Shown one piece after another: positions 13,075-31,595 of a DNA stretch of 64,000 nucleotides. A program made the position numbers and the translations under genes. The stretch spans positions 32,001-96,000 of IMG/VR virus record IMGVR_UViG_3300027906_000003; one strand, 5' to 3'. The notes below the pieces were generated by a model. That model made no database searches and was not told the DNA's origin. It saw only the letters and a program-made list of their open reading frames with translations. This stretch comes from a virus. Position 1 is the first letter of the stretch. Each line of letters begins with the position of its first letter.

Positions 13075-14469
13075 ATGTCAGAGAAAATTTATGTAAATAC
13101 TGGTTCGACCTTTCAACAACCATTTAATGATAGGTCACCTAAGAATGCTCAGCAACCTTATATAGCTAATGCTCAGACTCCCTATATAGCTAATTCACAA
13201 ACACCCTTTACATATTCAAATAGACAACCTGCAAAGTATCAGAATCCAACTGATGCTCAGCAACCTTATATAGCTAATGCACAACAGTCGTATCCATATA
13301 TTGCTAATGCAAGACAACCTTACATAGCTAACGCACAACAACCTTATCCATATCAGGCAAATAGTCAGAATCCTTATATTGCGAATGCAAGGCAACCTGC
13401 GAAGTATCAACATCCGACATCTTCTCAGACTCCTTACATAGCTAATGCACAGACACCGTATCCTGCTAATGCAAGACAACCTAGTGATTATCAAACACCT
13501 TATATTGCAAATTATCAAACAGCGTATCCTGCAAATGCGAGACAACCTGTAGATGCTCAACAACCTAGTAATAGTCAAACACCATATCCTGCAAATGCTA
13601 GGCAACCTGCAAAATATAGAAACCCATTTACATATAATGCGAGGACTCCAGCATCTTCACAAACTCCTGTAACCTATGATGTGTGGGGTGGGGGAAATGC
13701 TCAATCAACATCACAATTAGAAACCACAACTGATGTGTCAGCACCTATGGCACCCTTTTCACAAACGCCTACTTTTAATTACCAGACTGTAGGTCAACCA
13801 ACATCAATTCATTGGGGTCCAGGTTCAACACATATAAAAAATAGTCCAAATTCATCATATGCTCCAACAACTGCACCTATGATTTGGAGTACCCAGCAAT
13901 ATAACACTTATAATTACAGTTTCGGTTCTTGTTGGGCTCAGTTCTTTATTGGTTATGAATCTAGTTCAGGCAAAGTTTACTACGGTTATGGTGCGGGTAA
14001 TTCTCAATTCGGAGGCACAAGTGTTGGCACCTCTGGTAATAGAGTATATTTACCTTTAACTGAATTAAGTAATAATAATGTTATTGATAGTTCTTGGTCA
14101 ATATCAGTCAAATATACAGTTCAATCACAAAGTATAGTTCAAGGTGGTACATCTTCTCAACATCCAGCTAGTCCGAGTTATGGTACAGGTTTAGCTGCTG
14201 GAACATATGTAAACATATGGGATGGTTCTTCTGTTCAAAGTAGTGGCATTGAAACATTCATGTGGGAGGCGGTATCATCATCTAACCCAGGAAATGGAGA
14301 TGCAAGGGTTTCTGCAAGTGGTGTAGTATTTACAGTTAAGGCACATAAGACTGGTCAAACATCATACTATACACATTATATTGTAGCACAACATGGAGCT
14401 GGTACCAGCTCACCTTTTGGTGAAATATATTTGAGGTCACTCTATGGTAATAACCATGCACCAGTATAA
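13075..14469 (+). CDS. Pro/Tyr/Gln repeat protein A1 (YIAN-type stalk plus C-terminal globular, putative adhesin domain)
   Basis: aa 16-197 are PYIANxQx-type repeats, followed by about 265 aa of non-repetitive aromatic/Ser/Gly-rich sequence. Confidence 0.75.
   Translation: MSEKIYVNTGSTFQQPFNDRSPKNAQQPYIANAQTPYIANSQTPFTYSNRQPAKYQNPTDAQQPYIANAQQSYPYIANARQPYIANAQQPYPYQANSQNPYIANARQPAKYQHPTSSQTPYIANAQTPYPANARQPSDYQTPYIANYQTAYPANARQPVDAQQPSNSQTPYPANARQPAKYRNPFTYNARTPASSQTPVTYDVWGGGNAQSTSQLETTTDVSAPMAPFSQTPTFNYQTVGQPTSIHWGPGSTHIKNSPNSSYAPTTAPMIWSTQQYNTYNYSFGSCWAQFFIGYESSSGKVYYGYGAGNSQFGGTSVGTSGNRVYLPLTELSNNNVIDSSWSISVKYTVQSQSIVQGGTSSQHPASPSYGTGLAAGTYVNIWDGSSVQSSGIETFMWEAVSSSNPGNGDARVSASGVVFTVKAHKTGQTSYYTHYIVAQHGAGTSSPFGEIYLRSLYGNNHAPV
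13120..13665 (+). repeat. Coding tandem repeat, 25 units of 6/8/10 aa (YIAN type)
   Basis: Parsed by hand from the translation; nearly all units begin with Pro. Confidence 0.9.
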
Positions 14470-14483
14470 GGAGATGAGAAGAT

Positions 14484-15200
14484 ATGCCTACAGTTAGTCA
14501 ACCAGTCATAATTCAGCAACCTTATATTGCAAGTGGTCAATCGCCGGTCGATTATAGAGTTCCGTTTACATATCAGGCAAGACAACCTGGAACATATAGA
14601 CACCCCTTTACATATCAAGTTCCGTTTACATATCAGGCAAGACAACCTGGAACATATGATGCAAGGCAACCTGCAAAGTATCAACACCCATTTATATATC
14701 AGGCACGACAGCCTTCTACATATCAGGCAAGACAACCTGCTATATACAGACATCCGGCAGATTATCAAACACCATTTACATATGCTCGTAGACAACCGGC
14801 AACATATGCAAGACAAGGTCAAACTCCGTTTACATATCAAGCAAGAACACCTTTCACATATGATAGACAAGGTCAAACACCATTTACATATCAGGCAAGA
14901 AGTCCGTTTACATACAGAAATCCAACAGACTATCAGACACCTTATATTGCAGATGCAAGACAACCTGGAACATATTCTAATAGACAACCATCCACTTATC
15001 AGAATAGACAACCATTCACATATCAACTTTCGGTTCCAAGCACAAGACCAATAGGTCCTTTGGCAAAAGCAAAACAAGTTTGGGTAAATGATAACGGAAC
15101 TTTAAAAAAGGCAAGTAGTGTATATGTAAATGATGGTGGAACGGCTAAAAAGATACATCAAACACAACCTACAGCACAATTAACAGAACCTAATACCTAG
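14484..15200 (+). CDS. Pro/Tyr/Gln repeat protein B1 (PFTY-type; mirror partner of A1)
   Basis: PFTYQARQ/PGTY repeats; C-terminal VWVNDNG and VYVNDGG motifs; AAGGAG SD upstream. Confidence 0.75.
   Translation: MPTVSQPVIIQQPYIASGQSPVDYRVPFTYQARQPGTYRHPFTYQVPFTYQARQPGTYDARQPAKYQHPFIYQARQPSTYQARQPAIYRHPADYQTPFTYARRQPATYARQGQTPFTYQARTPFTYDRQGQTPFTYQARSPFTYRNPTDYQTPYIADARQPGTYSNRQPSTYQNRQPFTYQLSVPSTRPIGPLAKAKQVWVNDNGTLKKASSVYVNDGGTAKKIHQTQPTAQLTEPNT
14502..15047 (+). repeat. Coding tandem repeat, 25 units of 6/8/10 aa (xTY type)
   Basis: Unit lengths are the reverse of those in 13120-13665. Confidence 0.9.
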
Positions 15201-20754: not shown

Positions 20755-21015
20755 ATGGCAACAACAAATACATTTGTAGTAGAATACGGATTGACAGTTG
20801 GAACAACCGAAGTTATAAATTCATCAGGAAAGATACAAGCGGCAGCTATTTCAACCTTAGATTCTGATGACCTTTCGGAAGGTTCTACAAATCAATATTT
20901 TACTAACGCGAGAGCAAGAGGGTCTATATCCTTAGCTTCTGGAGAGACAAATCTCAGTTATAATTCTACATCTGGAGAACTTAGTCTACCAACAGTTAAC
21001 GGAGGTACCATCTAA
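20755..21015 (+). CDS. Short fibre linker protein
   Basis: FVVEYGL N-motif, DDLSEGSTNQYFTNARA motif, NGGTI C-terminus. Confidence 0.65.
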   Translation: MATTNTFVVEYGLTVGTTEVINSSGKIQAAAISTLDSDDLSEGSTNQYFTNARARGSISLASGETNLSYNSTSGELSLPTVNGGTI

Positions 21016-23084
21016 TGGCGGGTGAAAAGAACTTTAATATTAAAAATGGACTATCAGTTCAAGGCGTAGAAGTAATAAACTCGTCTGGTGACTTAGTTGC
21101 CGGCGGAGTTGGAACAGCAGTTCAAGAGGCCATTGCAGATAAAATCGGTGGAATACTCAGTGCAACAGGTGGTGCAACTGCAACATACAATGATGGTGCA
21201 GACACTATCGTTATTGATGTTCCAATTACAGATGAAGATAACATGGCATCAAACAGTGCTACTGCTATTCCTTCACAACAATCAGTCAAAGCATATGTAG
21301 ACTCTCAAATCTTAACAAAAGACAATACAGATGAGATAACAGAGGGTTCAACTAATTTATATTTCACAAACGCAAGAGCAGATGCCAGAATTGCAAACGC
21401 AATCAAAGATGAAGATAACATGGCATCAGATAGTGCAACTCATGTTCCTTCACAACAATCTGTTAAGGCTTTTGTAGCCACACAACTTGCAACTAAAGAC
21501 GCATTATCAGAACTTTCAGGTGATTCAGACGATATCACAGAGGGTACAACAAACTTATTCCATACATCTGAAAGAGTTGCAGATGTTGTTGGAGGAATGG
21601 TGACTTCAAATACCGAATCTGGTATAACAGTCACATATGAGGATGGTGATAACACTTTAGACTTTGCAATAGGAACACTAAACCAAAACACAACAGGTTC
21701 AGCAGCTACTCTAACAACTCCAAGAGCAATTTCAGGTACCAACTTTGATGGTTCTGCAGACATTACTTTAACGACTGCCGGAATAACAGAAAACACAAAT
21801 CTCTACTATACAAACGAAAGAGTTGATGATAGAGTCAACGCATTATTGACTGCTGGTACTAACATAACAACATCATACGATGATGCAAATGGTACCTTAA
21901 CAATTAACTCTTCAGGTAAAACAGAAGAAGAAATTGAAGACATTGTAAACGGATTAGTTGTTGGTGGAACAGGAATATCATCAACATATGATGACGCTGC
22001 TGGAACATTAACACTTGCAACTTCTATTACACAATATGCAGATTCAGATGCTAGAGGTGCTATCTCAGTCACAGATTCAGGTGGAGATGGTAGTTTAGCA
22101 TATAATAACTCAACAGGTGTAATAACTTATACAGGACCAAGTGCATCAGAAGTAAGAGCTCATCTAAGTGCTGGAACTGGTGTATCATATTCAGGTGGTG
22201 CAATCAGTATTGGTCAGGCAGTTTCAACTTCTTCAGATGTCACATTTGGGGATATAGCTGCAACAGATATAACACTATCTGGAAACTTAACAGTTAATGG
22301 TACCACAACAACAGCTGCTTCTACTAACACAGTAATCACAGATAGATTGATTGAGTTAGGAAACGGAACAACAGGAACACCAGCAAATGATATGGGTCTT
22401 GTCTTCGAAAGAGGAAGTTCAGACAATGTATTTGTAGGTTGGGACGAAAGTGCAGACGCTGTTACCGTAGGAACAGGTTCATTTACAGGTGCTAGCACAG
22501 GTGATTTAACACATACAGTAGCTAACTTTACTGCTGGTGTTGGAACATTTGCCTCATTAGATATTTCAGGAAACGCAGACATTGACGGAACAATGGAAGC
22601 AGATGCGTATACAGTTGACGGAACTGCATTAAACGAATACATTGCCGATACAGTTGGTGCAATGGTATCGTCAAATACTGAAAGTGGCATCACAGTTGCT
22701 TATCAAGACGGAGACAATACATTAGACTTTACAATCGGAACACTTAACCAAAACACTACAGGTTCAGCGGCAACATTAACAACAGCCAGAGCAATAGCAT
22801 TAGGTGGAGATTTATCAGGTTCTGCAAACTTTGATGGTTCTGCAGATATAACAATTACTGCTACAGTAGCAGATGATTCACACAATCATACAATTGCAAA
22901 TGTAGATGGACTACAAACTGCATTAGATTCAAAATATGATTCAGGTGATAATATTGCAGCGGGAACAATAACAACAACGAATGCAAGTAATTCGGGTGGA
23001 TATGTAAGAAATGTATATCAGTCAACATCTAATCCAGGCAGTAGTGATGGTGCAGTTGGTGACTTATGGATATTATACAGTTAA
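21015..23084 (+). CDS. Long fibre protein with internal duplications
   Basis: FNIKNGL N-motif. DEDNMAS...PSQQSVKA occurs twice and SNTESGITV...NQNTTGSAATLTT twice. Ends GDLWILYS. Confidence 0.7.
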   Translation: MAGEKNFNIKNGLSVQGVEVINSSGDLVAGGVGTAVQEAIADKIGGILSATGGATATYNDGADTIVIDVPITDEDNMASNSATAIPSQQSVKAYVDSQILTKDNTDEITEGSTNLYFTNARADARIANAIKDEDNMASDSATHVPSQQSVKAFVATQLATKDALSELSGDSDDITEGTTNLFHTSERVADVVGGMVTSNTESGITVTYEDGDNTLDFAIGTLNQNTTGSAATLTTPRAISGTNFDGSADITLTTAGITENTNLYYTNERVDDRVNALLTAGTNITTSYDDANGTLTINSSGKTEEEIEDIVNGLVVGGTGISSTYDDAAGTLTLATSITQYADSDARGAISVTDSGGDGSLAYNNSTGVITYTGPSASEVRAHLSAGTGVSYSGGAISIGQAVSTSSDVTFGDIAATDITLSGNLTVNGTTTTAASTNTVITDRLIELGNGTTGTPANDMGLVFERGSSDNVFVGWDESADAVTVGTGSFTGASTGDLTHTVANFTAGVGTFASLDISGNADIDGTMEADAYTVDGTALNEYIADTVGAMVSSNTESGITVAYQDGDNTLDFTIGTLNQNTTGSAATLTTARAIALGGDLSGSANFDGSADITITATVADDSHNHTIANVDGLQTALDSKYDSGDNIAAGTITTTNASNSGGYVRNVYQSTSNPGSSDGAVGDLWILYS

Positions 23085-23104
23085 TAACTGTAAGGTGAAA
23101 ATAA

Positions 23105-23977
23105 ATGGTAACAGGTAATCAAAAGGTTAAAACCCCAGCTGGTTGGAATTCAACTAGAGGGGCTTGGGTTAAGACTGCATCAGACACATGGACAGATGTT
23201 GACCAGATTTATGTAAAAACTCCAACAGGTTGGAATAATGCGTCAGGTCAGGCAATTACTCAGAACCCTTACCCATATATTGCGAATAATCAAACCCCTT
23301 ATATTGCTAATGCTCAACAGCCTTATCCTTATATTGCGAATAACCAGACTCCATATATTGCAAATGGTCAACAACCATATCCGTATATAGCAAACAGTCA
23401 GACTCCTTATATAGCAAACGGTCAACAACCTTATCCATATCAGGCAAATAGTCAGACTCCTTATATTGCTAACGCACAACAACCGTATCCATATATTGCG
23501 AATAGTCAATCACCATATATTGCTAATGCAAGACAACCTGCAAAATATCAGAATCCTGTAAATGGACAACAACCCTATATTGCAAATGGTCAAAGAAATG
23601 AGTCATACAGAAATCCTGTAAACTATCAGACACCTTATATTGCAAATGCTAGACAACCTGCACATTATAGGAATCCTGTAAGTTATCGTGTGCCTTATAT
23701 TGCAAATGGTCAACAACCATTTACCTATAATGCAAGGTATCCGGCAACATATCCGGCAAATGCTCAGCAACCATTCACCTACAATGCAAGGTATCCTGCA
23801 ACATATCCGGCAAATGCAAGACAACCATTTACATATAATGCAAGATATCCTGCAAATGCAACATATCCTGCAAACGGACAACAACCGTCTACATATCCGT
23901 TCTTGTATAATGCACCTTATCCATTCTTCCAACCATTTGGTGGCGGCGGTGGTTCACCTAACATGAACTTGAAATAA
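23105..23977 (+). CDS. Pro/Tyr/Gln repeat protein A2 (YIAN-type)
   Basis: Three VKT..W motifs at the N-terminus, then 26 repeat units. Confidence 0.75.
   Translation: MVTGNQKVKTPAGWNSTRGAWVKTASDTWTDVDQIYVKTPTGWNNASGQAITQNPYPYIANNQTPYIANAQQPYPYIANNQTPYIANGQQPYPYIANSQTPYIANGQQPYPYQANSQTPYIANAQQPYPYIANSQSPYIANARQPAKYQNPVNGQQPYIANGQRNESYRNPVNYQTPYIANARQPAHYRNPVSYRVPYIANGQQPFTYNARYPATYPANAQQPFTYNARYPATYPANARQPFTYNARYPANATYPANGQQPSTYPFLYNAPYPFFQPFGGGGGSPNMNLK
23267..23884 (+). repeat. Coding tandem repeat, 26 units of 6/8/10 aa
   Basis: (10,8)x5,(6,6,8)x3,8,10,8,10,8,6,6. Confidence 0.9.
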
Positions 23978-24011
23978 TGGAGTATATAATGAATAAAACG
24001 GAGAACACACA

Positions 24012-24749
24012 ATGGCTATAGGATTTTACTGGACAAGTGCTCAAGGTAACACTAGGTCACCGTTTACTTATCAAGTCCCATTTACATATCGTGTGCCTTA
24101 CATTGCAAATGGTAGGTCACCATTTACTTATCAAGCATCATATCGTGTGCCTTATATTGCGAATGGTAGAAGTCCTTTCACATATCAAGCATCATATCGT
24201 GTGCCTTACATTGCAAATGGTAGGTCACCGTTTACATATAATGCAAGGTATCCGGCAGGTTATAGAAATCCGGTAAGTTATCGAGTTCCGTTTACATATT
24301 CAAATAGACAACCTGCATTATATCAGAATCCTGTAATTTATCAAGTTCCGTTTACTTACAACAATAGGTCTCCGTTTACATACAGAAACCCTGTAGATTA
24401 TAGAATACCGTTTACATATCAGTCAAGACAACCAGGCACATATCAGAGAACAGGACAAACTCCATTCACTTATCAGAATAGACAACCTGGAACATATGAA
24501 ACACAAGGTCAAACACCATTTACCTATCAAAACAGGCAACCAGGAACATATGATAGGCAAGGACAGACTCCATTCACTTATCAGAATAGACAACCTGGAA
24601 CATATGCAAGACAAGGTCAGACTCCATTCACTTATCAGAATAGACAACCTGGAACATATGCTACACAAGGTAGAACACCAGTGTCTCGTTGGGATGGAGT
24701 TTTATCACAAACTTGGCCAGCAGCTCCGTTTGATGCTACAAACTCATAA
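24012..24749 (+). CDS. Pro/Tyr/Gln repeat protein B2 (PFTY-type; mirror partner of A2)
   Basis: PFTY/PGTY repeats; GGAG SD upstream. Confidence 0.75.
   Translation: MAIGFYWTSAQGNTRSPFTYQVPFTYRVPYIANGRSPFTYQASYRVPYIANGRSPFTYQASYRVPYIANGRSPFTYNARYPAGYRNPVSYRVPFTYSNRQPALYQNPVIYQVPFTYNNRSPFTYRNPVDYRIPFTYQSRQPGTYQRTGQTPFTYQNRQPGTYETQGQTPFTYQNRQPGTYDRQGQTPFTYQNRQPGTYARQGQTPFTYQNRQPGTYATQGRTPVSRWDGVLSQTWPAAPFDATNS
24060..24677 (+). repeat. Coding tandem repeat, 26 units of 6/8/10 aa
   Basis: 6,6,8,10,8,10,8,(8,6,6)x3,(8,10)x5, the exact reverse of A2. Confidence 0.9.
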
Positions 24750-24808
24750 ATCAACTCATAAAATAACACCTAAATATCTGTATTAAACAAACTTAATACA
24801 GGTATTTT

Positions 24809-26461
24809 ATGGCAGCTGATTCTAAATTTATTGACATCAAAACAGTTGAAGATGTTGATAAGATAAAACAAATAGATTTCTCAGATGTAGAGAACGCATT
24901 CTCTATAAGAAACAAAGAAGATTCTGAACACTATCATTTAGGAAGTCTAAATGTGAATCGTGTTATGAAAGATATCAATCCTTGTTATCAAGTTCTTAAA
25001 AAAGTATTCGAAGAGAAAAAAATACCACCTCTTAAATTATTTACATATGGTGATGTAATAAATGATAGAAGAGGAAATACAATGTTGACTATGCACGGTT
25101 TAAAACACCATTCTCTAGTATATAACGCATTCCTACCTTATGGTTATACTTGTGCTCCAACTCCAGAAATGTTTCCAACAGGAACAAATACATCTGTAAT
25201 TAGAACAGAAGAAGACCCAAATGGAGAAAGGTCTATAAATTATTATGCAGTAGAAAAAGATGAAGAAGATAGTCAATCTCAACCACAAAAAACACTTTGG
25301 GATAGTTCTTACTATCACGCTGCGAAAGCACACTGGTTAACTCAAAGTATAATTGAAGATGGTTTATGGGCACCAATACAAGGAATTATTTTAAAAGATA
25401 CTTCATGGATTGATGAAAACAATCCAGATGAAAAGTATAAATTCTATGTTCATCCAGGTTCTGTTCGTTCAGGTGTTATTGAAGAAATGCAAGACCCTAG
25501 TATGATGTGTCATTTCTTTGACCCACATAACAAGGTTCCTGATGTTGAACCAGCAACAGTAGATGAGTTTTTGGATTATTGGAAAGACTTACTTGAAAAA
25601 AGAAATATAGAACAAGACAATCTATCTTTTATTATAACAGGTGGAGTTATAGAGGTAAGCAGTGAGTTTGCAAATGTGTCTGATTTTAGGCCTAAAATAT
25701 ATGAGTTTAATAAGAAAGTTCATAAACTTGCAAAAGGTAAACCTCTAAACATATACATTGGTTATGACTCAACACATAATCAATTAGAAGAATTAACCAA
25801 GTTCTCCATAGAAGACTCAATTAAACAAAGTTTTTCTGCAAATACAAAAACAAATCGATTCATTCCTGAGATAAAAATGCTTGACTATTCTAAGATTCCA
25901 GTGTATAATAGGGAGTATGCAAATCAATCTACTGCGTTTACATACAGTAGATTTTTGATACCTTACTTAGAGAATTATGAAGGATTCAGTATGTTTCTTG
26001 ATGATGATATTCTTTTTGAAGAGAATTTATTACCAATGTTCTACTATCTAAATCCTGATGATGCGGTTGCGTGTATTCAATACCCACAATATAAACACGA
26101 TTCTGTTAAGTTTAATGGTGAAATAAACATAGATTATCCATGTAAGTTGTGGTCTTCATTAATGATATTTAATAATGGACATGAAGACTGTAAGAAACTA
26201 ACACCAGAAGTTGTTAATACATGGACAGGTGCTCAGTTGCATCAGTTCGAATGGACAGATAAATTGAGTAAGATACCTGAACACTATATTTTTACTGAAG
26301 GATATGATAATCCAGAAACCAAATGGGGTTGTTCTGGTTATCATTATACAAGAGGTGGTCCTTGGATAGATAACATGGACACATCTAATATTAAAAGACT
26401 ATCACACTATGAGAAAATAAAGACTCGTAGAGACAACCTAAATAATTTGAAGAGAGGATAA
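24809..26461 (+). CDS. Two-domain protein with C-terminal GT-A glycosyltransferase
   Basis: IYIGYD, STAFTYSRFLIP, MFLDDD (DxD), WSSLMIFN and HYTRGGPW motifs. N-terminal ~300 aa unassigned. Confidence 0.75.
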   Translation: MAADSKFIDIKTVEDVDKIKQIDFSDVENAFSIRNKEDSEHYHLGSLNVNRVMKDINPCYQVLKKVFEEKKIPPLKLFTYGDVINDRRGNTMLTMHGLKHHSLVYNAFLPYGYTCAPTPEMFPTGTNTSVIRTEEDPNGERSINYYAVEKDEEDSQSQPQKTLWDSSYYHAAKAHWLTQSIIEDGLWAPIQGIILKDTSWIDENNPDEKYKFYVHPGSVRSGVIEEMQDPSMMCHFFDPHNKVPDVEPATVDEFLDYWKDLLEKRNIEQDNLSFIITGGVIEVSSEFANVSDFRPKIYEFNKKVHKLAKGKPLNIYIGYDSTHNQLEELTKFSIEDSIKQSFSANTKTNRFIPEIKMLDYSKIPVYNREYANQSTAFTYSRFLIPYLENYEGFSMFLDDDILFEENLLPMFYYLNPDDAVACIQYPQYKHDSVKFNGEINIDYPCKLWSSLMIFNNGHEDCKKLTPEVVNTWTGAQLHQFEWTDKLSKIPEHYIFTEGYDNPETKWGCSGYHYTRGGPWIDNMDTSNIKRLSHYEKIKTRRDNLNNLKRG

Positions 26462-26464
26462 ATT

Positions 26465-27046
26465 ATGAATGATATAAAAAACGCTTTAGTTTTTTGTGAG
26501 AACAGAAATCTTTGGATAAGAAAACCAAACGGACTTGAATACGAATTTCAGAATGTTGATAAACCTGCATTAGGTTTTGAATTTGATGTTGTAATATATG
26601 ATGAGATGGAAAGTAAAATTCTTAAATGGGACCCAAATAAAAATTTTGACGAACAAGAAATAGTTCCTTTAAATGAAAGTGAGAAAGAACTTTGTGAACA
26701 ATATATTGCAAATTCAGAAGCACCAGAAGGAATAAATCTACACAATCAATATGTAGAAAGACTTGGTGATTATTGCAGACAACAACAAGAAGAAGTTCGA
26801 ATGACTTATGGTTTCCGTGATATGGAAATGGTATTGGTTGCTGGTAGAGAGGGTTCAAATCATCCTATGAGAGGAAATGCCAGAAGAGTATTAGAGTATG
26901 TTGATAATACACATCAAATATTTGCTTCGGTAACTGATGAAATCTTTGCAACTAAAGAAGAACTACTTAAAGATTATGATGTTTATAGAAGACAGATACC
27001 TCAATCGTCTATGGCTACAGGCCATGCCGAATTAGGTAATGCCTAA
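26465..27046 (+). CDS. Hypothetical protein
   Basis: 193-aa ORF tightly packed in the operon. Confidence 0.7.
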   Translation: MNDIKNALVFCENRNLWIRKPNGLEYEFQNVDKPALGFEFDVVIYDEMESKILKWDPNKNFDEQEIVPLNESEKELCEQYIANSEAPEGINLHNQYVERLGDYCRQQQEEVRMTYGFRDMEMVLVAGREGSNHPMRGNARRVLEYVDNTHQIFASVTDEIFATKEELLKDYDVYRRQIPQSSMATGHAELGNA

Positions 27047-27048
27047 AG

Positions 27049-27792
27049 ATGCAAGTCGTTCACATTGATAAACCCTTTAAGATACAGGACATGCCTTTAA
27101 AAGATGTCTATGTATTAGATAATTGGTTATCAACTGAACTACATCAACACTTCGATAAACTAATTTCTAATAATTCTTGGTGGTCTAAAACAAATCAAGT
27201 AGGCAGTAATAGTCCTACAGGTCTTCCACACCATTCTTTTTGGGGTGCGTCTTTCTTTAGAGACAACTATGAAATAGAACATGACATGGAACCTCTACAT
27301 ACATATTTTGTTAAATCTATTATAGAAAGACTTGAAGTTGAATTTGGATTTAAATATACTCGTTTTCAATATGCAGGCCTAAACTCACAAACACAAGGTT
27401 GTCCAGGAACAATACATACAGACTGTTCAAATGATGACGCATGGAATATATCCTTTCTATATTACCCAAATAGATTTTGGAATCCAAAATGGGGTGGGAC
27501 ATTAAGATTGCTTGATGAACCACATCAAGGTTTAGATGGAAGACAAGAACATATTGAGAAACATCAGATAGCCGAAGTAGAGTTTGTTCCAAATCGACTA
27601 GTTATATTTGACGGAAGAATACCTCATGGTGCAGATGCACCAAATGAAAGTGCAAGATATATGGATAGAAAATCTTTAGTAATAAGAGGAGATGAGGTAG
27701 AATTAATAAAAAACACAGAGGTGTTGTATAAATCTTATAGAAGGCCAATGACAGAATGGGCCGCTGGAACACACCTACAACCTTACTTTTAA
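27049..27792 (+). CDS. 2OG-Fe(II) oxygenase (prolyl-hydroxylase-like)
   Basis: HTD...WNPKWGG...PNRLVIFDGRIPH...R.S motifs. Confidence 0.85.
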   Translation: MQVVHIDKPFKIQDMPLKDVYVLDNWLSTELHQHFDKLISNNSWWSKTNQVGSNSPTGLPHHSFWGASFFRDNYEIEHDMEPLHTYFVKSIIERLEVEFGFKYTRFQYAGLNSQTQGCPGTIHTDCSNDDAWNISFLYYPNRFWNPKWGGTLRLLDEPHQGLDGRQEHIEKHQIAEVEFVPNRLVIFDGRIPHGADAPNESARYMDRKSLVIRGDEVELIKNTEVLYKSYRRPMTEWAAGTHLQPYF

Positions 27793-27793
27793 A

Positions 27794-28879
27794 ATGCCAA
27801 CAATAGAATTTACATGTTATAACGATAGAACTCTAAAAGAGACTAGACCTATTCTTGCGTCTAAAGTCCAACCAGAATGGTGGAAAGGGTTGAAAATTAA
27901 TGAGATAGTCAGAGGTGATAAACAACAGACTATTAGAGCATGTCCAGCTATGCAAGATTGGTTGACTATGGGGTATTACCTAATTGCAGAAAAGGATATG
28001 TATGTTCAAATAGGTAGAGACAAATATGATGAGAGTGGAAAGGCTTCTGTTGCATGGTCATATGAAGACCCAAAATTAGGTTCGTCATCTCATCCAGACA
28101 CACAATTTGGAAATGCGTTCGAACCTGAAAAAAGAGCTGGACTTCCAGTGAAAGACGCATTCAAATTTAGGAATGCCTGGAATATAAAAACCCCACCTGG
28201 TTATTCTTGTTTATATCTTGACCCATTTTTACATCAAAACAATTTCTTTAGTGTATGGCCAGGTATAATAGACACTGATAAGTTTAATTTAAATATGGAT
28301 AATTCACAAGTTATATTTTATCCTAAAGTAGACCATTCATTTGTCATAAAGAAAGGAACTCCTTTAACTCAAATCATACCATTTAGAAGAGAAGAATGGA
28401 ATTCTTCTGCTCAGGTTAAAGACCCAAAAACATTTATAGACAATTTATCTGATGTGACATCTGTATATGGACCTGATAAACCAGTCACTTTACATATGGA
28501 ATATGCAGAATGGCAAGAAAAAGATAGGAAAGAAAAAGAAAAATTCAATGAGAGCAGAATTGCAACAGACGCTCTTATGGAAAATGCAAAAGGTAATAAA
28601 ATTAGAAAGTCTGTTCAAGGTGCCATAAACGAGGCAAATCTATTAGAAGCAAATGGATTAGGTCCTTATAGAAAAGTTGGAATGCACATGCCTAAAACTA
28701 AACTATACAAGAATAAAGGTAATGAATTGGATATAGAGATACCACCAGAATGCCCTATGCACAAGAAAACAGAAGAGTCTCCTGAAATTCAATTAGAAAT
28801 GGACTTCAATGATAAACAACGAGAGTTAACAGATTTAAATTGGGACGGTTCGGAGTCAAAGAAAATAGATAGAGATTAG
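27794..28879 (+). CDS. Conserved phage protein (CPAM...W.IKTPPGYS..PGIIDTD family)
   Basis: Motifs typical of a family found next to phage oxygenases; function unknown. Confidence 0.6.
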   Translation: MPTIEFTCYNDRTLKETRPILASKVQPEWWKGLKINEIVRGDKQQTIRACPAMQDWLTMGYYLIAEKDMYVQIGRDKYDESGKASVAWSYEDPKLGSSSHPDTQFGNAFEPEKRAGLPVKDAFKFRNAWNIKTPPGYSCLYLDPFLHQNNFFSVWPGIIDTDKFNLNMDNSQVIFYPKVDHSFVIKKGTPLTQIIPFRREEWNSSAQVKDPKTFIDNLSDVTSVYGPDKPVTLHMEYAEWQEKDRKEKEKFNESRIATDALMENAKGNKIRKSVQGAINEANLLEANGLGPYRKVGMHMPKTKLYKNKGNELDIEIPPECPMHKKTEESPEIQLEMDFNDKQRELTDLNWDGSESKKIDRD

Positions 28880-28882
28880 ATT

Positions 28883-29599
28883 ATGTCAGTTAAATTTTTT
28901 GCACCTCAGATGGTGTTTATAAGAGACTTGTTAGACCCAAGTTTAGGTGACATTGGTGTTGATGATAATTATATAAGTCTTCTTAAAAGAACTATAGATG
29001 AAATGAGGAGTGATGACCCAATAGGAAGAAGAATTTCAAATGCAGATACAGGTTGGCAATCAAATGACGGTTGTGAAGACCATCCAGCCTTTGTAAAATT
29101 AATGAGATGTATAAGAGAATCTCTTTATGAAGAAGTTTGGCCTTTTTGGGGATTAGATAGAAATAAGGGTCATATGGTTGAAATGCACAACTCATGGGCA
29201 AATATAAATGATAAGGGTGCCTGGAATAAACCACACAAACACAATGGTTGTTGGATGTCTGGTGCCTTTTATATAAATGCACAAGGAGATGAGGGTGATT
29301 TCATAGCAATGTCAGATTCAGATAGAGTAATGGGTGATTTTCCACATTCACAAAGAATGCAAGAGACTGAAAATTTAAGACCTAAAACAGGAATGTTGTA
29401 TATGTTTCCTAGTGGTTTGTCTCACATGGTTGCACCAAATACAACTGATAATGATAGATATAGTATATCATTTAATGTAGGATTTAGATACAAAGGAGAA
29501 AGACCAACAGGAGATATTCCAAATTGGCGTTGGGATGAAACTCTTTTTGATATCACACCAGACGGAAAACTTATACAAGTATCTACTGCAGAAGAATAA
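28883..29599 (+). CDS. Putative 2OG-Fe(II) oxygenase (TIGR02466-like)
   Basis: GWQS, WANIN...HKH..SGAFY, FPSGLSHMV, RYSISFN. Confidence 0.85.
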   Translation: MSVKFFAPQMVFIRDLLDPSLGDIGVDDNYISLLKRTIDEMRSDDPIGRRISNADTGWQSNDGCEDHPAFVKLMRCIRESLYEEVWPFWGLDRNKGHMVEMHNSWANINDKGAWNKPHKHNGCWMSGAFYINAQGDEGDFIAMSDSDRVMGDFPHSQRMQETENLRPKTGMLYMFPSGLSHMVAPNTTDNDRYSISFNVGFRYKGERPTGDIPNWRWDETLFDITPDGKLIQVSTAEE

Positions 29600-30740: not shown

Positions 30741-31595
30741 ATGCCGACAAATGTATACTTTAACCATGCAGTTAATACTGAACAACACCTCTATGAGGAT
30801 TTAGTTGTTGAATCACTTAGATTCTATGGTCATGAAACATACTATCTACCAAGACAGATAATAGAAGAAGATAGTATTCTTGGTGAAGATGTGCAATCAA
30901 CATTCGGTGATGCGTATTCTGTAGAAATGTATTTAGATAATGTTGAGGGGTTTGAAGGAGAGGACCTATTCTCTAAGTTTGGTATTCAAACACAAGAAGA
31001 ATGCACATTTACACTTGCACTTAGAACATGGGAAAGATTCATTTCATTAGACTCCAACTTAGTCACATCACTTAGACCAAATGAGGGAGACTTAGTATAC
31101 TTCCCTATGTCTGGTTCTATGTTTGAAATCAGATATGTCGAAGACCAAAATCCTTTCTTTCAGATAGGAAAACTTTTTGTATTCAAACTTAAATGCACAT
31201 TATTCGAATACAGTGGAGAAGACTTCGATACAAACATTGATGCAATTGACATTGTTGAAGACCAACAAGCATATACAATTCAATTAACAATGAATTCAAG
31301 TGGTTCAGGTGATTACGCAGCGAATGAATCAATTAAGATTGGTTCAACAGTAATTGGTGAAGTCACATCTTGGAAAGCGTCTACACATCTACTTACAGTT
31401 AAAGATGTCACCACAACGATTCAGGTTGGTGATACGATAGAGGGTGCTGTTAACGGTGCATCTTATACAGTTGCAAGTATTAGAGACATTCTAACTATGA
31501 ATGACGGAACAGGTGCTGATAATGCAGATTTAGAAACTACTGCAGACAACTACTTAGACTTCTCAGAAACAAACCCATTTGGTGAGGTTACATAA
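30741..31595 (+). CDS. gp14: Neck protein gp14
   Basis: EQHLYEDLVVES, FSKFG, RPNEGDLVYFP, DFSETNPFG. Confidence 0.92.
   Translation: MPTNVYFNHAVNTEQHLYEDLVVESLRFYGHETYYLPRQIIEEDSILGEDVQSTFGDAYSVEMYLDNVEGFEGEDLFSKFGIQTQEECTFTLALRTWERFISLDSNLVTSLRPNEGDLVYFPMSGSMFEIRYVEDQNPFFQIGKLFVFKLKCTLFEYSGEDFDTNIDAIDIVEDQQAYTIQLTMNSSGSGDYAANESIKIGSTVIGEVTSWKASTHLLTVKDVTTTIQVGDTIEGAVNGASYTVASIRDILTMNDGTGADNADLETTADNYLDFSETNPFGEVT

What the first reader, a model, noticed from the sequence alone, without database searches (positions are those of the whole stretch)
23267..24677. Pair 2 (A2/B2): 26-unit mirror match including a polarity switch
A2: (10,8)x5,(6,6,8)x3,8,10,8,10,8,6,6 = 206 aa; B2 reversed is identical. 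One A2 boundary (NESYRN) lacks Pro. In the last third, A2 switches to PFTYNARY x3, and B2 has PYIANGRS x3 at the mirrored positions. The fivefold 18-aa block is expanded to the same copy number in both genes using different sequences (PYPYIANxQTPYIANxQQ versus PFTYQNRQPGTYxxQGQT), implying matched expansion in two genes. There is no globular tip. The distal end would be only short aromatic peptides (PFFQPFGGGGG in A2, MAIGFYW in B2), so the stalk itself or a small tip may be the functional surface.
Basis: partly seen in the sequence, partly recalled or inferred. Interest (0 to 1): 0.85.

Follow-up and report, generated by a model that had tools for sequence, protein, structure and literature searches.

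The report
Mirror-coded two-protein phage fibre
Two neighbouring genes of an uncultured marine T4-like phage encode proline-punctuated repeat proteins that match unit for unit when one is read backwards, and dozens of related phages keep this match, so the two chains most likely lie head-to-tail in one thin fibre held in register by a pairing code that I did not find described in print.

Summary
A2 (23105-23977, 290 aa) and B2 (24012-24749, 245 aa) each carry 26 units of 6, 8 or 10 residues (206 aa). B2's unit order is the exact reverse of A2's. The best of 100,000 shuffles reaches 20 shared boundaries, against 27 observed.

The match is not chance, not an inverted DNA repeat and not an assembly accident. 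Of 35 distinct A2/B2-type pairs from other viral contigs, 31 share at least 90% of boundaries with no sliding. The copy number of the proximal 18-aa block ranges from 0 to 7 and is equal in both genes in 32 of 35.

Facing units are complementary, not alike. Residue couplings lie on antiparallel diagonals. Five natural single-chain forms of the paralogous pair type are self-mirrored with the same code.

Best reading: the two chains pair antiparallel and in register as a beta ribbon, forming the shaft of an accessory fibre in the host-recognition cluster of a pelagimyophage-like phage. Fold, stoichiometry and function are inferred; both structure predictions gave nothing usable.

There is no Pfam, PHROG or PDB match, and four of my five paper searches looked for and found no description. 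This scan has reported the same design before, on this genome's other pair and on other phage DNA.

The parts
21015..23084 (+). Upstream fibre protein (689 aa), the likely attachment partner of the pair's proximal end
   Evidence: PHROG hits to structural and tail-fibre families. Found directly upstream of the A2-type gene in relatives; tblastn hit in 52 of 59 loci.
23105..23977 (+). Gene A2 (290 aa), with a Shine-Dalgarno-like AAGGTGA upstream
   Evidence: no Pfam or PHROG family
23105..23266 (+). A2 N-terminal domain (aa 1-54) with three related VK/GW motifs; the proximal end
   Evidence: Most conserved part of the family in alignment A1. The repeats start immediately after it in all relatives.
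23267..23884 (+). A2 repeat tract: 26 units, 206 aa, pattern (10,8)x5,(6,6,8)x3,8,10,8,10,8,6,6
23717..23848 (+). Polarity-switched part of A2 (PFTY-type 8-mers alternating with PATYPA 10-mers)
23885..23974 (+). A2 distal tail: aromatic cluster, five Gly, seven further residues
   Evidence: The same aromatic plus poly-Gly element precedes a Hint domain in 9 distinct relatives.
24012..24749 (+). Gene B2 (245 aa), with GGAG 9 nt upstream of the ATG
   Evidence: the N-terminus M-A/P-I-G-F is conserved in relatives
24012..24059 (+). B2 distal head (aa 1-16, aromatic MAIGFYW start)
24060..24677 (+). B2 repeat tract: 26 units, 206 aa, the exact reverse of A2's pattern
24096..24251 (+). B2 segment carrying the three PYIA-type 8-mers that face A2's switched PFTY units
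24678..24746 (+). B2 C-terminal tail with the conserved RWD...WP motif; the proximal end, next to A2's N-domain under the antiparallel model
   Evidence: Alignment A2. The anchored comparison works with no sliding.
13075..15200 (+). Paralogous pair 1 (A1 13075-14469, B1 14484-15200), with a different, non-cross-matching barcode
24809..29599 (+). Conserved downstream cassette: GT8-like glycosyltransferase, unknown gene, 2OG-Fe(II) oxygenase (PF13640), unknown gene, second 2OG oxygenase. Context only.

Best explanation
A2 and B2 are the two strands of one fibre shaft. The chains lie side by side in opposite directions and in exact register: unit i of A2 lies against unit 27-i of B2.

Each unit starts with Pro, and every unit length is even. 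All Pro residues therefore fall on one parity of an extended beta strand, and aromatic residues fall on the other. My inferred picture is a long two-chain antiparallel beta ribbon, alone or as three ribbons around the axis of the upstream trimeric fibre. In it Pro faces Pro, and a YIA-type unit (small residue at position 4) packs against an xTY-type unit (Tyr at position 4).

The irregular 6/8/10 spacing and the two unit types act as a register and partner code. They prevent slippage in a highly repetitive rod and keep pair 2 from pairing with pair 1.

A2's N-terminal domain and B2's C-terminal RWD..WP tail meet at the proximal end and dock on the fibre protein encoded just upstream. The distal end is a small aromatic/poly-Gly cap.

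Shaft length evolves by tandem duplication in one gene followed by a compensating duplication in the other.

Shown: the mirror, the complementarity, their conservation through many different barcodes, the antiparallel residue couplings, and the single-chain self-mirrored forms of the type-1 (pair-1-like) kind.

Inferred: physical pairing, beta conformation, stoichiometry, virion location and function.
For: 1. Exact 26-unit mirror. 27 of 27 boundaries by length, against a maximum of 20 in 100,000 shuffles. 26 boundaries by Pro, against 15 for the parallel comparison and a shuffle maximum of 16.

2. Conservation through change. Among 42 distinct pair patterns from the window and the 56 of 59 viral-contig loci that hold at least two adjacent repeat ORFs, the mirror score exceeds every one of 200 shuffles in 38 and exceeds the parallel score in 39. 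With fixed anchors and no sliding, 31 of 35 distinct type-2 pairs share at least 90% of boundaries, although tract lengths range from 162 to 532 aa.

3. Complementarity. Of 719 facing 8-mer pairs, 707 have Tyr/Phe at position 4 on exactly one side and 12 are like-with-like. Both polarities occur: 236 and 143 for the YIA/xTY classes.

4. Residue-level coupling. Position 4 of the small-type unit covaries with position 6 of its partner (A with N/A, R with H/Y, G with F). 381 of 406 pairs within mixed loci follow this rule, against a mean of 301.5 and a maximum of 321 in 1000 within-locus shuffles (the rule was read off the same data). Mutual information concentrates at i+j = 8 for 6-mers, 10 for 8-mers and 10/12 for 10-mers. 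The parallel diagonal is low.

5. Five of the 120 listed longer homologues are single chains with an A1-type N-terminus and a B1-type C-terminus. They are self-mirrored with the same code.

6. Cognate pairs score 26 and 21 shared boundaries. Non-cognate and self pairings score 11-16.

7. Period-2 pattern. All Pro-Pro spacings inside both tracts of A2 and B2 are even. Aromatic residues sit at even unit positions 3945 times and at odd positions 41 times across 90 distinct proteins.

8. Fibre context. PHROG fibre families on neighbouring genes. The order fibre-A-B is kept, with the two genes swapped in six loci (L031-L035, L055). The region lies between fibre genes and the gp14-like neck gene. 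That is the host-recognition cluster as defined for pelagimyophages (PMC7029224, passages read).
Against: There is no structural or biochemical evidence. AlphaFold2 on a natural fused form gave mean pLDDT 29.7, so the beta-ribbon picture rests on sequence periodicity alone.

Pro every 6-10 residues is unusual for long beta strands.

The mirror would also fit a 3+3 bundle, a coiled two-chain solenoid, or a template role for B2.

Three of the distinct pairs (L009, L017, L030) differ by one block. One Logan contig of run X1 joins 24084 to 24193, which would shorten B2 by 36 aa with A2 intact. A 37-nt exact repeat 108 nt apart makes a k-mer collapse likely there, but this is not settled.

No contig laid bridges a whole array pair.

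Covariation statistics are not corrected for shared ancestry. Unique unit pairs and within-locus shuffles reduce this problem but do not remove it.
Confidence: 0.8

Rival explanations
1. The same antiparallel pairing, but in a closed six-chain shaft (three A2 plus three B2 alternating around a threefold axis), or a ribbon wound into a compact two-chain beta solenoid, rather than a free two-stranded ribbon.
For: The upstream fibre proteins are of kinds that form trimers (PHROG hits; trimer formation is general knowledge). The aromatic face of a lone ribbon would be exposed. Blocks of 18 aa (10+8) and 20 aa (6+6+8) are close to typical solenoid coil lengths (recalled). The recalled T4 gp37 needle is a six-strand out-and-back bundle.
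Against: Variable unit lengths that pair strictly one-to-one are simplest in a ladder. Pro on both chains would cost hydrogen bonds in a closed barrel. No model could be obtained.
Confidence: 0.35
2. B2 is a matched assembly template or chaperone that pairs with A2 during folding and is absent from the finished virion.
For: Phage fibres commonly need dedicated chaperones encoded next to them (general knowledge; an LtfC-like gene follows pair 1). B2 has no domain other than the repeats.
Against: In the five fused forms of the type-1 (pair-1-like) kind the B-type arm is part of the same chain as the A-type arm. B carries its own conserved terminal motif, which abuts A's N-domain. A full-length, stoichiometric, length-matched chaperone would be costly.
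Confidence: 0.08
3. A2 and B2 each form their own homomeric fibre or a disordered low-complexity coat, and the mirror is a by-product of common descent, chance or assembly.
For: The Atlas's single-chain ESMFold model is of low confidence (pTM 0.45, mean pLDDT 0.58) and its nearest models include mucin-type proteins, which I take as a sign of an extended chain. The composition (P, Y, Q, N) resembles prion-like domains (recalled).
Against: Chance is excluded. There is no inverted DNA repeat: only 6 short pairs of 14-31 nt. Both genes are on the same strand and their units have different sequences. The mirror recurs in independent assemblies with dozens of different barcodes. Homomeric in-register packing would put like units together, which facing units almost never do: 12 of 719. 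A2 against itself in reverse scores 16, the background level.
Confidence: 0.04

Closest known systems
Needle domain of the phage T4 long-tail-fibre tip protein gp37 (recalled from the literature; not fetched or compared here)
   Same: A thin phage fibre segment in which polypeptide runs out to the tip and back, so that outgoing and returning strands lie antiparallel along the shaft. The self-mirrored single-chain relatives have that topology.
   Different: gp37 is one chain in a homotrimer held by His-coordinated iron. Here there are two genes, almost no His (one in A2, none in B2, read from the translations), Pro-punctuated 6/8/10 units and a two-type pairing code. There is no sequence similarity to any PDB chain.
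Streptococcal antigen I/II stalk
   Same: Two different repeat arrays pair antiparallel to make a long narrow stalk, with matched repeat numbers.
   Different: It is a single chain, pairs an alpha helix with a polyproline-II helix, and is a bacterial adhesin. The even unit lengths here argue for beta strands, not period-3 PPII.
Antiparallel intramolecular coiled-coil arms of SMC/Rad50-type proteins (recalled)
   Same: N- and C-terminal arms pair antiparallel over tens of nanometres, and their lengths must co-vary.
   Different: These are alpha-helical heptads in one chain. They have no discrete unit barcode and no Pro.
Parallel triple beta-helices of phage spikes and fibres, for example the octapeptide repeats of the T4 gp5 C-terminal domain (recalled)
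   Same: Short (about 8-residue) repeats that build a rigid phage fibre from beta strands.
   Different: These are homotrimeric, parallel and in register, with like units packed on like units. Here facing units are unlike and antiparallel.
Hedgehog/BIL-type Hint autoprocessing domains
   Same: Nine distinct A2-type relatives carry a C-terminal Hint module that starts Gly-Cys-Phe and ends His-Asn. For L012 the Hint score of 32.0 bits exceeds the Pfam cut-off of 29.7.
   Different: The window's A2 has no Hint domain. It keeps only the aromatic cluster and the poly-Gly that precede it in relatives.

Membership tests
Phage tail-fibre / host-recognition-cluster structural protein | Encoded within the fibre module of a T4-like genome | tested here: met
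   Neighbouring genes hit fibre and structural PHROGs. A T4 neck-protein gene lies downstream at 30741. The order fibre-A-B-GT is kept in relatives. The major capsid protein is 67.7% and 66.8% identical to those of phages Melnitz and HTVC008M. PMC7029224 places fibres between VrlC and gp14 (passages read).
Phage tail-fibre / host-recognition-cluster structural protein | Present in the virion and forming a fibre | not testable with these tools
   Needs virion proteomics or cryo-EM; no cultured carrier was found.
T4 gp37-type needle | Sequence or profile similarity to gp37 or other solved fibre chains | tested here: not met
   phmmer against PDB chains: 0 hits for A2, and one chance hit (E = 0.24, a kinase) for B2. 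No Pfam family.
T4 gp37-type needle | His-x-His iron-binding motifs along the shaft (feature recalled) | tested here: not met
   A2 has a single His and B2 has none in the translations.
Collagen-like / polyproline-II fibres | Three-residue periodicity (Gly or Pro every third residue) | tested here: not met
   Pro-Pro spacings in both tracts are 2, 4, 6, 8, 10 or 14, never a run of multiples of three. Aromatic residues fall on one parity, 3945 against 41.
Hint / bacterial intein-like autoprocessing domain | Hint fold with an N-terminal Cys and a C-terminal His-Asn | tested here: not met
   Not met for the window's A2: no Pfam hit and only 7 residues after the poly-Gly. It is met in relatives such as L012.
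Curli-type amyloid repeat proteins | Match to the curlin repeat family | tested here: not met
   No Pfam family at E <= 0.01 for A2 or B2.
Mirror-coded A/B fibre pairs (unnamed family seen in this scan) | Adjacent genes whose Pro-bounded unit strings are mutual reverses with unlike unit types facing | tested here: met

The most novel reading that the evidence does not exclude
The pair is a sequence-coded protein duplex. Two different polypeptides recognise each other along their whole length through a small alphabet of complementary units (length 6/8/10, type small or Tyr, plus residue-level pairs such as A:N, R:H and G:F). As with complementary nucleic-acid strands, the code sets partner, polarity and register.

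The code would be orthogonal between the two pairs of one virion. It would be evolvable by compensated tandem duplications, letting phages tune fibre length from about 160 to more than 530 residues per strand. In some lineages the hairpin end may be processed or sealed by a Hint domain.
Probability: 0.55. Interest if true: 0.92.

Novelty: categorically new. Interest (0 to 1): 0.86.

Why it matters
If the two chains really zip antiparallel by a unit code, this is a building principle for long protein rods that, as far as I could find, has no described precedent: register and partner choice are written in a readable barcode.

It would explain how a highly repetitive fibre avoids slippage. It would also explain how two such fibres coexist in one virion without mixing, and how fibre length can evolve stepwise.

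It offers a natural parts list for designing heterodimeric beta-sheet rods of programmable length.

It also concerns the host-recognition cluster of pelagimyophage-like phages. The cultured relatives with the most similar capsid protein infect SAR11 and OM43, very abundant marine bacteria, and receptor binding in this group is essentially unknown.

The family is abundant in marine viral metagenomes: 59 loci in one scan and 235 longer homologues. It has no name, no Pfam model and no structure.

Tried and rejected
Complex prediction of A2 with B2, each with a 12-row alignment: no verdict (ipSAE 0.00 in two runs; controls not run). This is no evidence either way.

AlphaFold2 on the natural fused form P0061 with a 5-row alignment: mean pLDDT 29.7 and pTM 0.13, so unusable. 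No fold search was therefore run.

ESM Atlas look-up of B2: the Atlas's own model has low confidence (pTM 0.45, mean pLDDT 0.58). The nearest clusters are unnamed viral proteins or mucin-like extended chains, with all feature scores below 0.8. These are leads only.

Megablast of 21000-27000 against 50,697 phage records: no match.

tblastn of A2 against the same phage records: only three near-identical Pseudomonas phage records. They cover 49% of A2 at 40.8% identity (E = 5e-4), in a hypothetical gene between the repressor region and other early genes. I judged this compositional and did not follow it.

A profile of the B2 family against the whole records of HTVC008M, Melnitz and Mosig: nothing. 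That call had no positive control; the single-protein search of the phage's own genome did find both pairs.

Inverted-duplication origin: rejected. There are only 6 short inverted pairs, 14-31 nt long and 74-86% complementary.

Read check: Logan contigs of four marine runs were laid on the region. They are short and break in the arrays. None bridges a whole array. Exact pieces in X2 tile 23049-24222. One X1 contig skips 108 nt of B2 where a 37-nt exact repeat lies 108 nt apart. This is inconclusive about copy number, and the runs may include the source sample.

Prolyl hydroxylation or glycosylation of the repeats by the conserved downstream 2OG oxygenase and GT8-like genes: considered. Only synteny within one phage clade supports it, and PMC7029224 reads such transferases as host-surface modifiers. 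I kept it as a speculation.

Hint-mediated ligation of A's last Gly to B's N-terminus: considered and untested.

Literature: five searches were run (plus passages). One search searched tail fibre / antiparallel / heterodimer / phage / repeat; I saw the listing and abstract starts only. One search searched Hint domain / tail fibre / phage; listing only. One search searched four motif strings; listing only, unrelated papers. One search searched pelagimyophages / tail fibre. None describes these proteins. Supplements were closed and may hold gene tables that I could not see.

One search was a script of mine that stopped on a Python error. One search is the corrected version.

Rows dropped: L007, L019 and L056 hold only one repeat ORF, cut by the contig end. 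In L036 the A gene is split into two ORFs, so the pair of its second ORF and B was used. Identical protein pairs were counted once. The four distinct patterns that did not beat the shuffles are L036 (its two A halves), L040, L053 and L057, where my Pro-based parser kept only 9-13 units.
Full report
**What is there**

The window is part of a 123,820-base IMG/VR virus record, estimated 69% complete. Its major capsid protein is 67.7% identical to that of Methylophilales phage Melnitz and 66.8% identical to that of Pelagibacter phage HTVC008M. It is therefore an uncultured marine T4-like phage of the pelagimyophage kind.

The finding lies in the fibre module. A 689-aa fibre protein (21015-23084, PHROG fibre and structural hits) is followed by A2 (23105-23977, 290 aa), then after 34 nt by B2 (24012-24749, 245 aa). 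Both genes have Shine-Dalgarno-like sequences.

Next come a GT8-like glycosyltransferase, an unknown gene, a 2OG-Fe(II) oxygenase (PF13640), another unknown gene, a second oxygenase and, further on, the gp14-like neck gene. This is the position that PMC7029224 calls the host-recognition cluster of pelagimyophages (passages read). That paper does not mention these repeat proteins; the word 'proline' occurs 0 times in its text.

**The observation**

Splitting at Pro, and merging fragments shorter than 6 residues into the next, gives A2 = (10,8)x5, (6,6,8)x3, 8,10,8,10,8,6,6. One boundary lacks Pro (NESYRN). B2 read backwards gives the same 26 units, 206 aa.

- By Pro-marked boundaries, 26 coincide. 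The same-direction comparison gives 15, and 200 shuffles of unit order give a mean of 12.1 and a maximum of 16.
- By unit length, 27 of 27 boundaries coincide, against a maximum of 20 in 100,000 shuffles. The unit multiset has 4.97e10 possible orders.
- All 11 facing 8-mer pairs put a YIA-type unit opposite an xTY-type unit. This includes the switch where A2 carries PFTYNARY three times and B2 carries PYIANGRS three times.
- The five 18-aa blocks sit at 23267-23536 and 24408-24677. Their 54-nt DNA copies are only 81% and 82% alike, so collapse or inflation by an assembler is unlikely there.

The two genes share no inverted DNA repeat beyond six pairs of 14-31 nt. The mirror exists at the protein level only.

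**Relatives**

One scan of viral contigs with A2 gave 59 loci. Of these, 56 hold at least two adjacent repeat ORFs; the other three are cut by contig ends.

Two pair types exist. Type 2 resembles A2/B2: A starts with three VK..GW motifs and B ends RWD..WP. Type 1 resembles the window's other pair at 13075-15200.

The barcodes differ widely, from 23 to about 70 units, yet A equals B reversed nearly everywhere. Among 42 distinct patterns, the mirror score beats all 200 shuffles in 38 and beats the parallel score in 39. The four failures are parser failures or the split A gene of L036.

I then anchored the comparison at A's first PYPY and at the residue before B's RWD motif, with no sliding allowed. 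Under this test 31 of 35 distinct type-2 pairs share at least 90% of B's boundaries. The proximal (10,8) block has 0, 1, 2, 3, 4, 5 or 7 copies and is equal in both genes in 32 of 35. Two of the three exceptions (L015, L016) have equal totals with shifted Pro positions; the third, L017, also carries a real block difference elsewhere in B.

Real length differences occur in three loci. L009 has A longer by 60 nt, L017 has B longer by 132 nt, and L030 has A shorter by 54 nt. Each was compared with a near-identical contig (0-5 mismatches over 1-2 kb) that is matched. In each, the extra block is 88-100% identical to its neighbour copy. These are young variants or assembly slips.

In six loci (L031-L035, L055) the gene order is B then A.

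**Pairing code**

Across 48 distinct protein pairs I extracted 1521 facing units, 597 of them unique.

- 8-mers: of 719 facing pairs, 707 have Tyr/Phe at position 4 on exactly one side and 12 do not.
- 6-mers: 454 of 540 facing pairs put a small residue (A/G/S) opposite Tyr at position 4, and 69 are Tyr opposite Tyr.
- 10-mers: PYPYIA-type units face PxTY..(Q/T)G(Q/R)T-type units.

Within the 8-mers, position 4 of the small-type unit covaries with position 6 of its partner:

| Pair (position 4 : position 6) | Unique pairs |
|---|---|
| R:H | 107 |
| A:N | 58 |
| A:A | 33 |
| G:F | 13 |

Inside loci that mix these flavours, 381 of 406 pairs follow the rule. One thousand within-locus shuffles give a mean of 301.5 and a maximum of 321. 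I read the rule off the same data, so the shuffle tests the association, not a prior prediction.

Mutual information, corrected by shuffling partners, concentrates on anti-diagonals. The largest sum is at i+j = 8 for 6-mers (1.37 bits), at 10 for 8-mers (2.20) and at 10 and 12 for 10-mers (1.00, 0.77). The parallel diagonal i = j carries 0.35, 0.57 and 0.39. The N-terminal half of one unit therefore couples with the C-terminal half of its partner, as expected if Pro faces Pro in an antiparallel ladder.

The variable positions are all even, and aromatic residues sit at even unit positions 3945 times against 41 at odd positions. All Pro-Pro spacings inside A2's and B2's tracts are even. This period-2 pattern argues for extended beta strands with one aromatic face. 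It argues against period-3 polyproline or collagen-type helices.

**Single-chain forms**

A search for longer homologues of B2 found 235 proteins at E <= 1e-5, of which 120 were listed. Five of the 120 (P0058, P0061, P0073, P0084, P0114; about 485 aa; several sources) have the type-1 A N-terminus and the type-1 B C-terminus in one chain. Each is self-mirrored around a middle domain, with 6-13 facing units that obey the same code. These are natural hairpins. The split pairs are the same architecture cut at the turn.

**Specificity**

In this phage the cognate pairs share 26 boundaries (A2/B2) and 21 (A1/B1). A2/B1, A1/B2, A2/A2, B2/B2, A2/A1 and B2/B1 share 11-16, the shuffle background. The two barcodes of one virion are thus orthogonal, and neither chain is a palindrome.

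**The ends**

A2's repeats begin directly after its conserved 54-aa N-domain, and B2's end directly before its conserved tail. The anchored comparison needs no offset. These two elements would therefore meet at one end, next to the upstream fibre.

At the other end, A2 has an aromatic cluster, five Gly and seven more residues. B2 starts MAIGFYW.

In nine distinct relatives (L012, L015, L022, L031, L038, L039, L042, L050, L058) the same aromatic-plus-poly-Gly element runs straight into Cys-Phe and a Hint domain ending His-Asn. For L012 the Pfam Hint score is 32.0 bits against a cut-off of 29.7; Intein_splicing is below its cut-off. Gly-Cys-Phe is the Hedgehog-type cleavage junction (recalled). 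After self-cleavage those chains would end much as A2 does. Other relatives carry a non-Hint globular end (L005, L006).

**What I could not get**

The complex prediction returned no verdict. AlphaFold2 on a fused form returned a pLDDT of 29.7. No PDB chain, Pfam family or PHROG family matches.

Contigs of four public marine runs tile A2 exactly but do not bridge the arrays. One contig skips 108 nt of B2 at a 37-nt exact repeat.

No cultured phage with the pair was found.

Conformation, stoichiometry (1:1 or 3:3), virion location and function all remain inferences.

**Verdict**

The most likely mechanism is a register-coded two-chain beta fibre shaft of the host-recognition apparatus.

The nearest known things share the out-and-back principle but not the two-gene, Pro-barcoded, complementary-unit design. 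They are the T4 gp37 needle, the antigen I/II stalk and the SMC arms, all recalled rather than tested.

Earlier notes of this scan reported the same design for this genome's pair 1 and for pairs on other phage genomes. I treated them as leads and re-derived the statistics here. Their existence does not count as evidence.

Noticed in passing
L012:1788-3017, L015, L022, L031, L038, L039, L042, L050, L058 (A-type genes): Nine distinct A2-type relatives end in a Hint/intein-like domain that starts Gly-Cys-Phe directly after the poly-Gly and ends His-Asn with no Cys/Ser/Thr after it. The domain sits at the distal end, where B's N-terminus would lie. Self-cleavage is likely; ligation to B is an untested idea.
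   Followed up: partly
P0058, P0061, P0073, P0084, P0114 (about 485 aa): Single-chain proteins with the type-1 A start and the type-1 B end, self-mirrored around a middle domain of about 130 aa. They are natural hairpin versions of the split pairs.
   Followed up: yes
window 24809-29599: A GT8-like transferase, an unknown gene, a PF13640 2OG-Fe(II) oxygenase, an unknown gene and a second oxygenase follow B2. They recur in the same order downstream of the pair (tblastn hits in 44, 44, 43, 41 and 29 of 59 loci respectively). Modification of the Pro-rich repeats is conceivable but not shown.
   Followed up: partly
window 24085-24192: One Logan contig of run X1 joins 24084 to 24193, removing two 18-aa blocks of B2 while A2 is intact in that run. 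Copies 1 and 3 of this array share an exact 37-nt stretch 108 nt apart, so a k-mer collapse is likely.
   Followed up: partly
L031-L035 and L055: The gene order is reversed (B-type gene first, then A-type) with the mirror intact, so the pairing does not depend on gene order.
   Followed up: no
L036:5724-7466: The A-type gene is split into two ORFs (286 and 294 aa). The second half still mirrors the distal part of B (27 shared boundaries against a shuffle maximum of 18). This is a frameshift, a sequencing error or a real three-piece form.
   Followed up: no
window 13216-13605, 14442-15077, 23243-23509, 23603-23932 (minus strand): Long Cys/Arg/Ile-rich ORFs on the opposite strand of all four repeat tracts. 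I read them as mechanical by-products of the repeats' codon pattern, not as genes.
   Followed up: no
window 23105-23266; 13075-13120; 15050-15200: Three related short motifs (hydrophobic-Y/W-V-K/N...G) sit at the proximal end of each pair. All three are in A2 for pair 2. For pair 1, one is in A1 and two are in B1, and in the fused forms they are split between the two termini. This fits the two termini meeting at the proximal end.
   Followed up: partly
L060 (PQ287279.1 32413-33735): A hypothetical 440-aa protein in the early/lysogeny region of three near-identical Pseudomonas phage records (one opened) gives a weak match to the repeat part of A2 (40.8% identity, E = 5e-4). This is probably compositional.
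   Followed up: no
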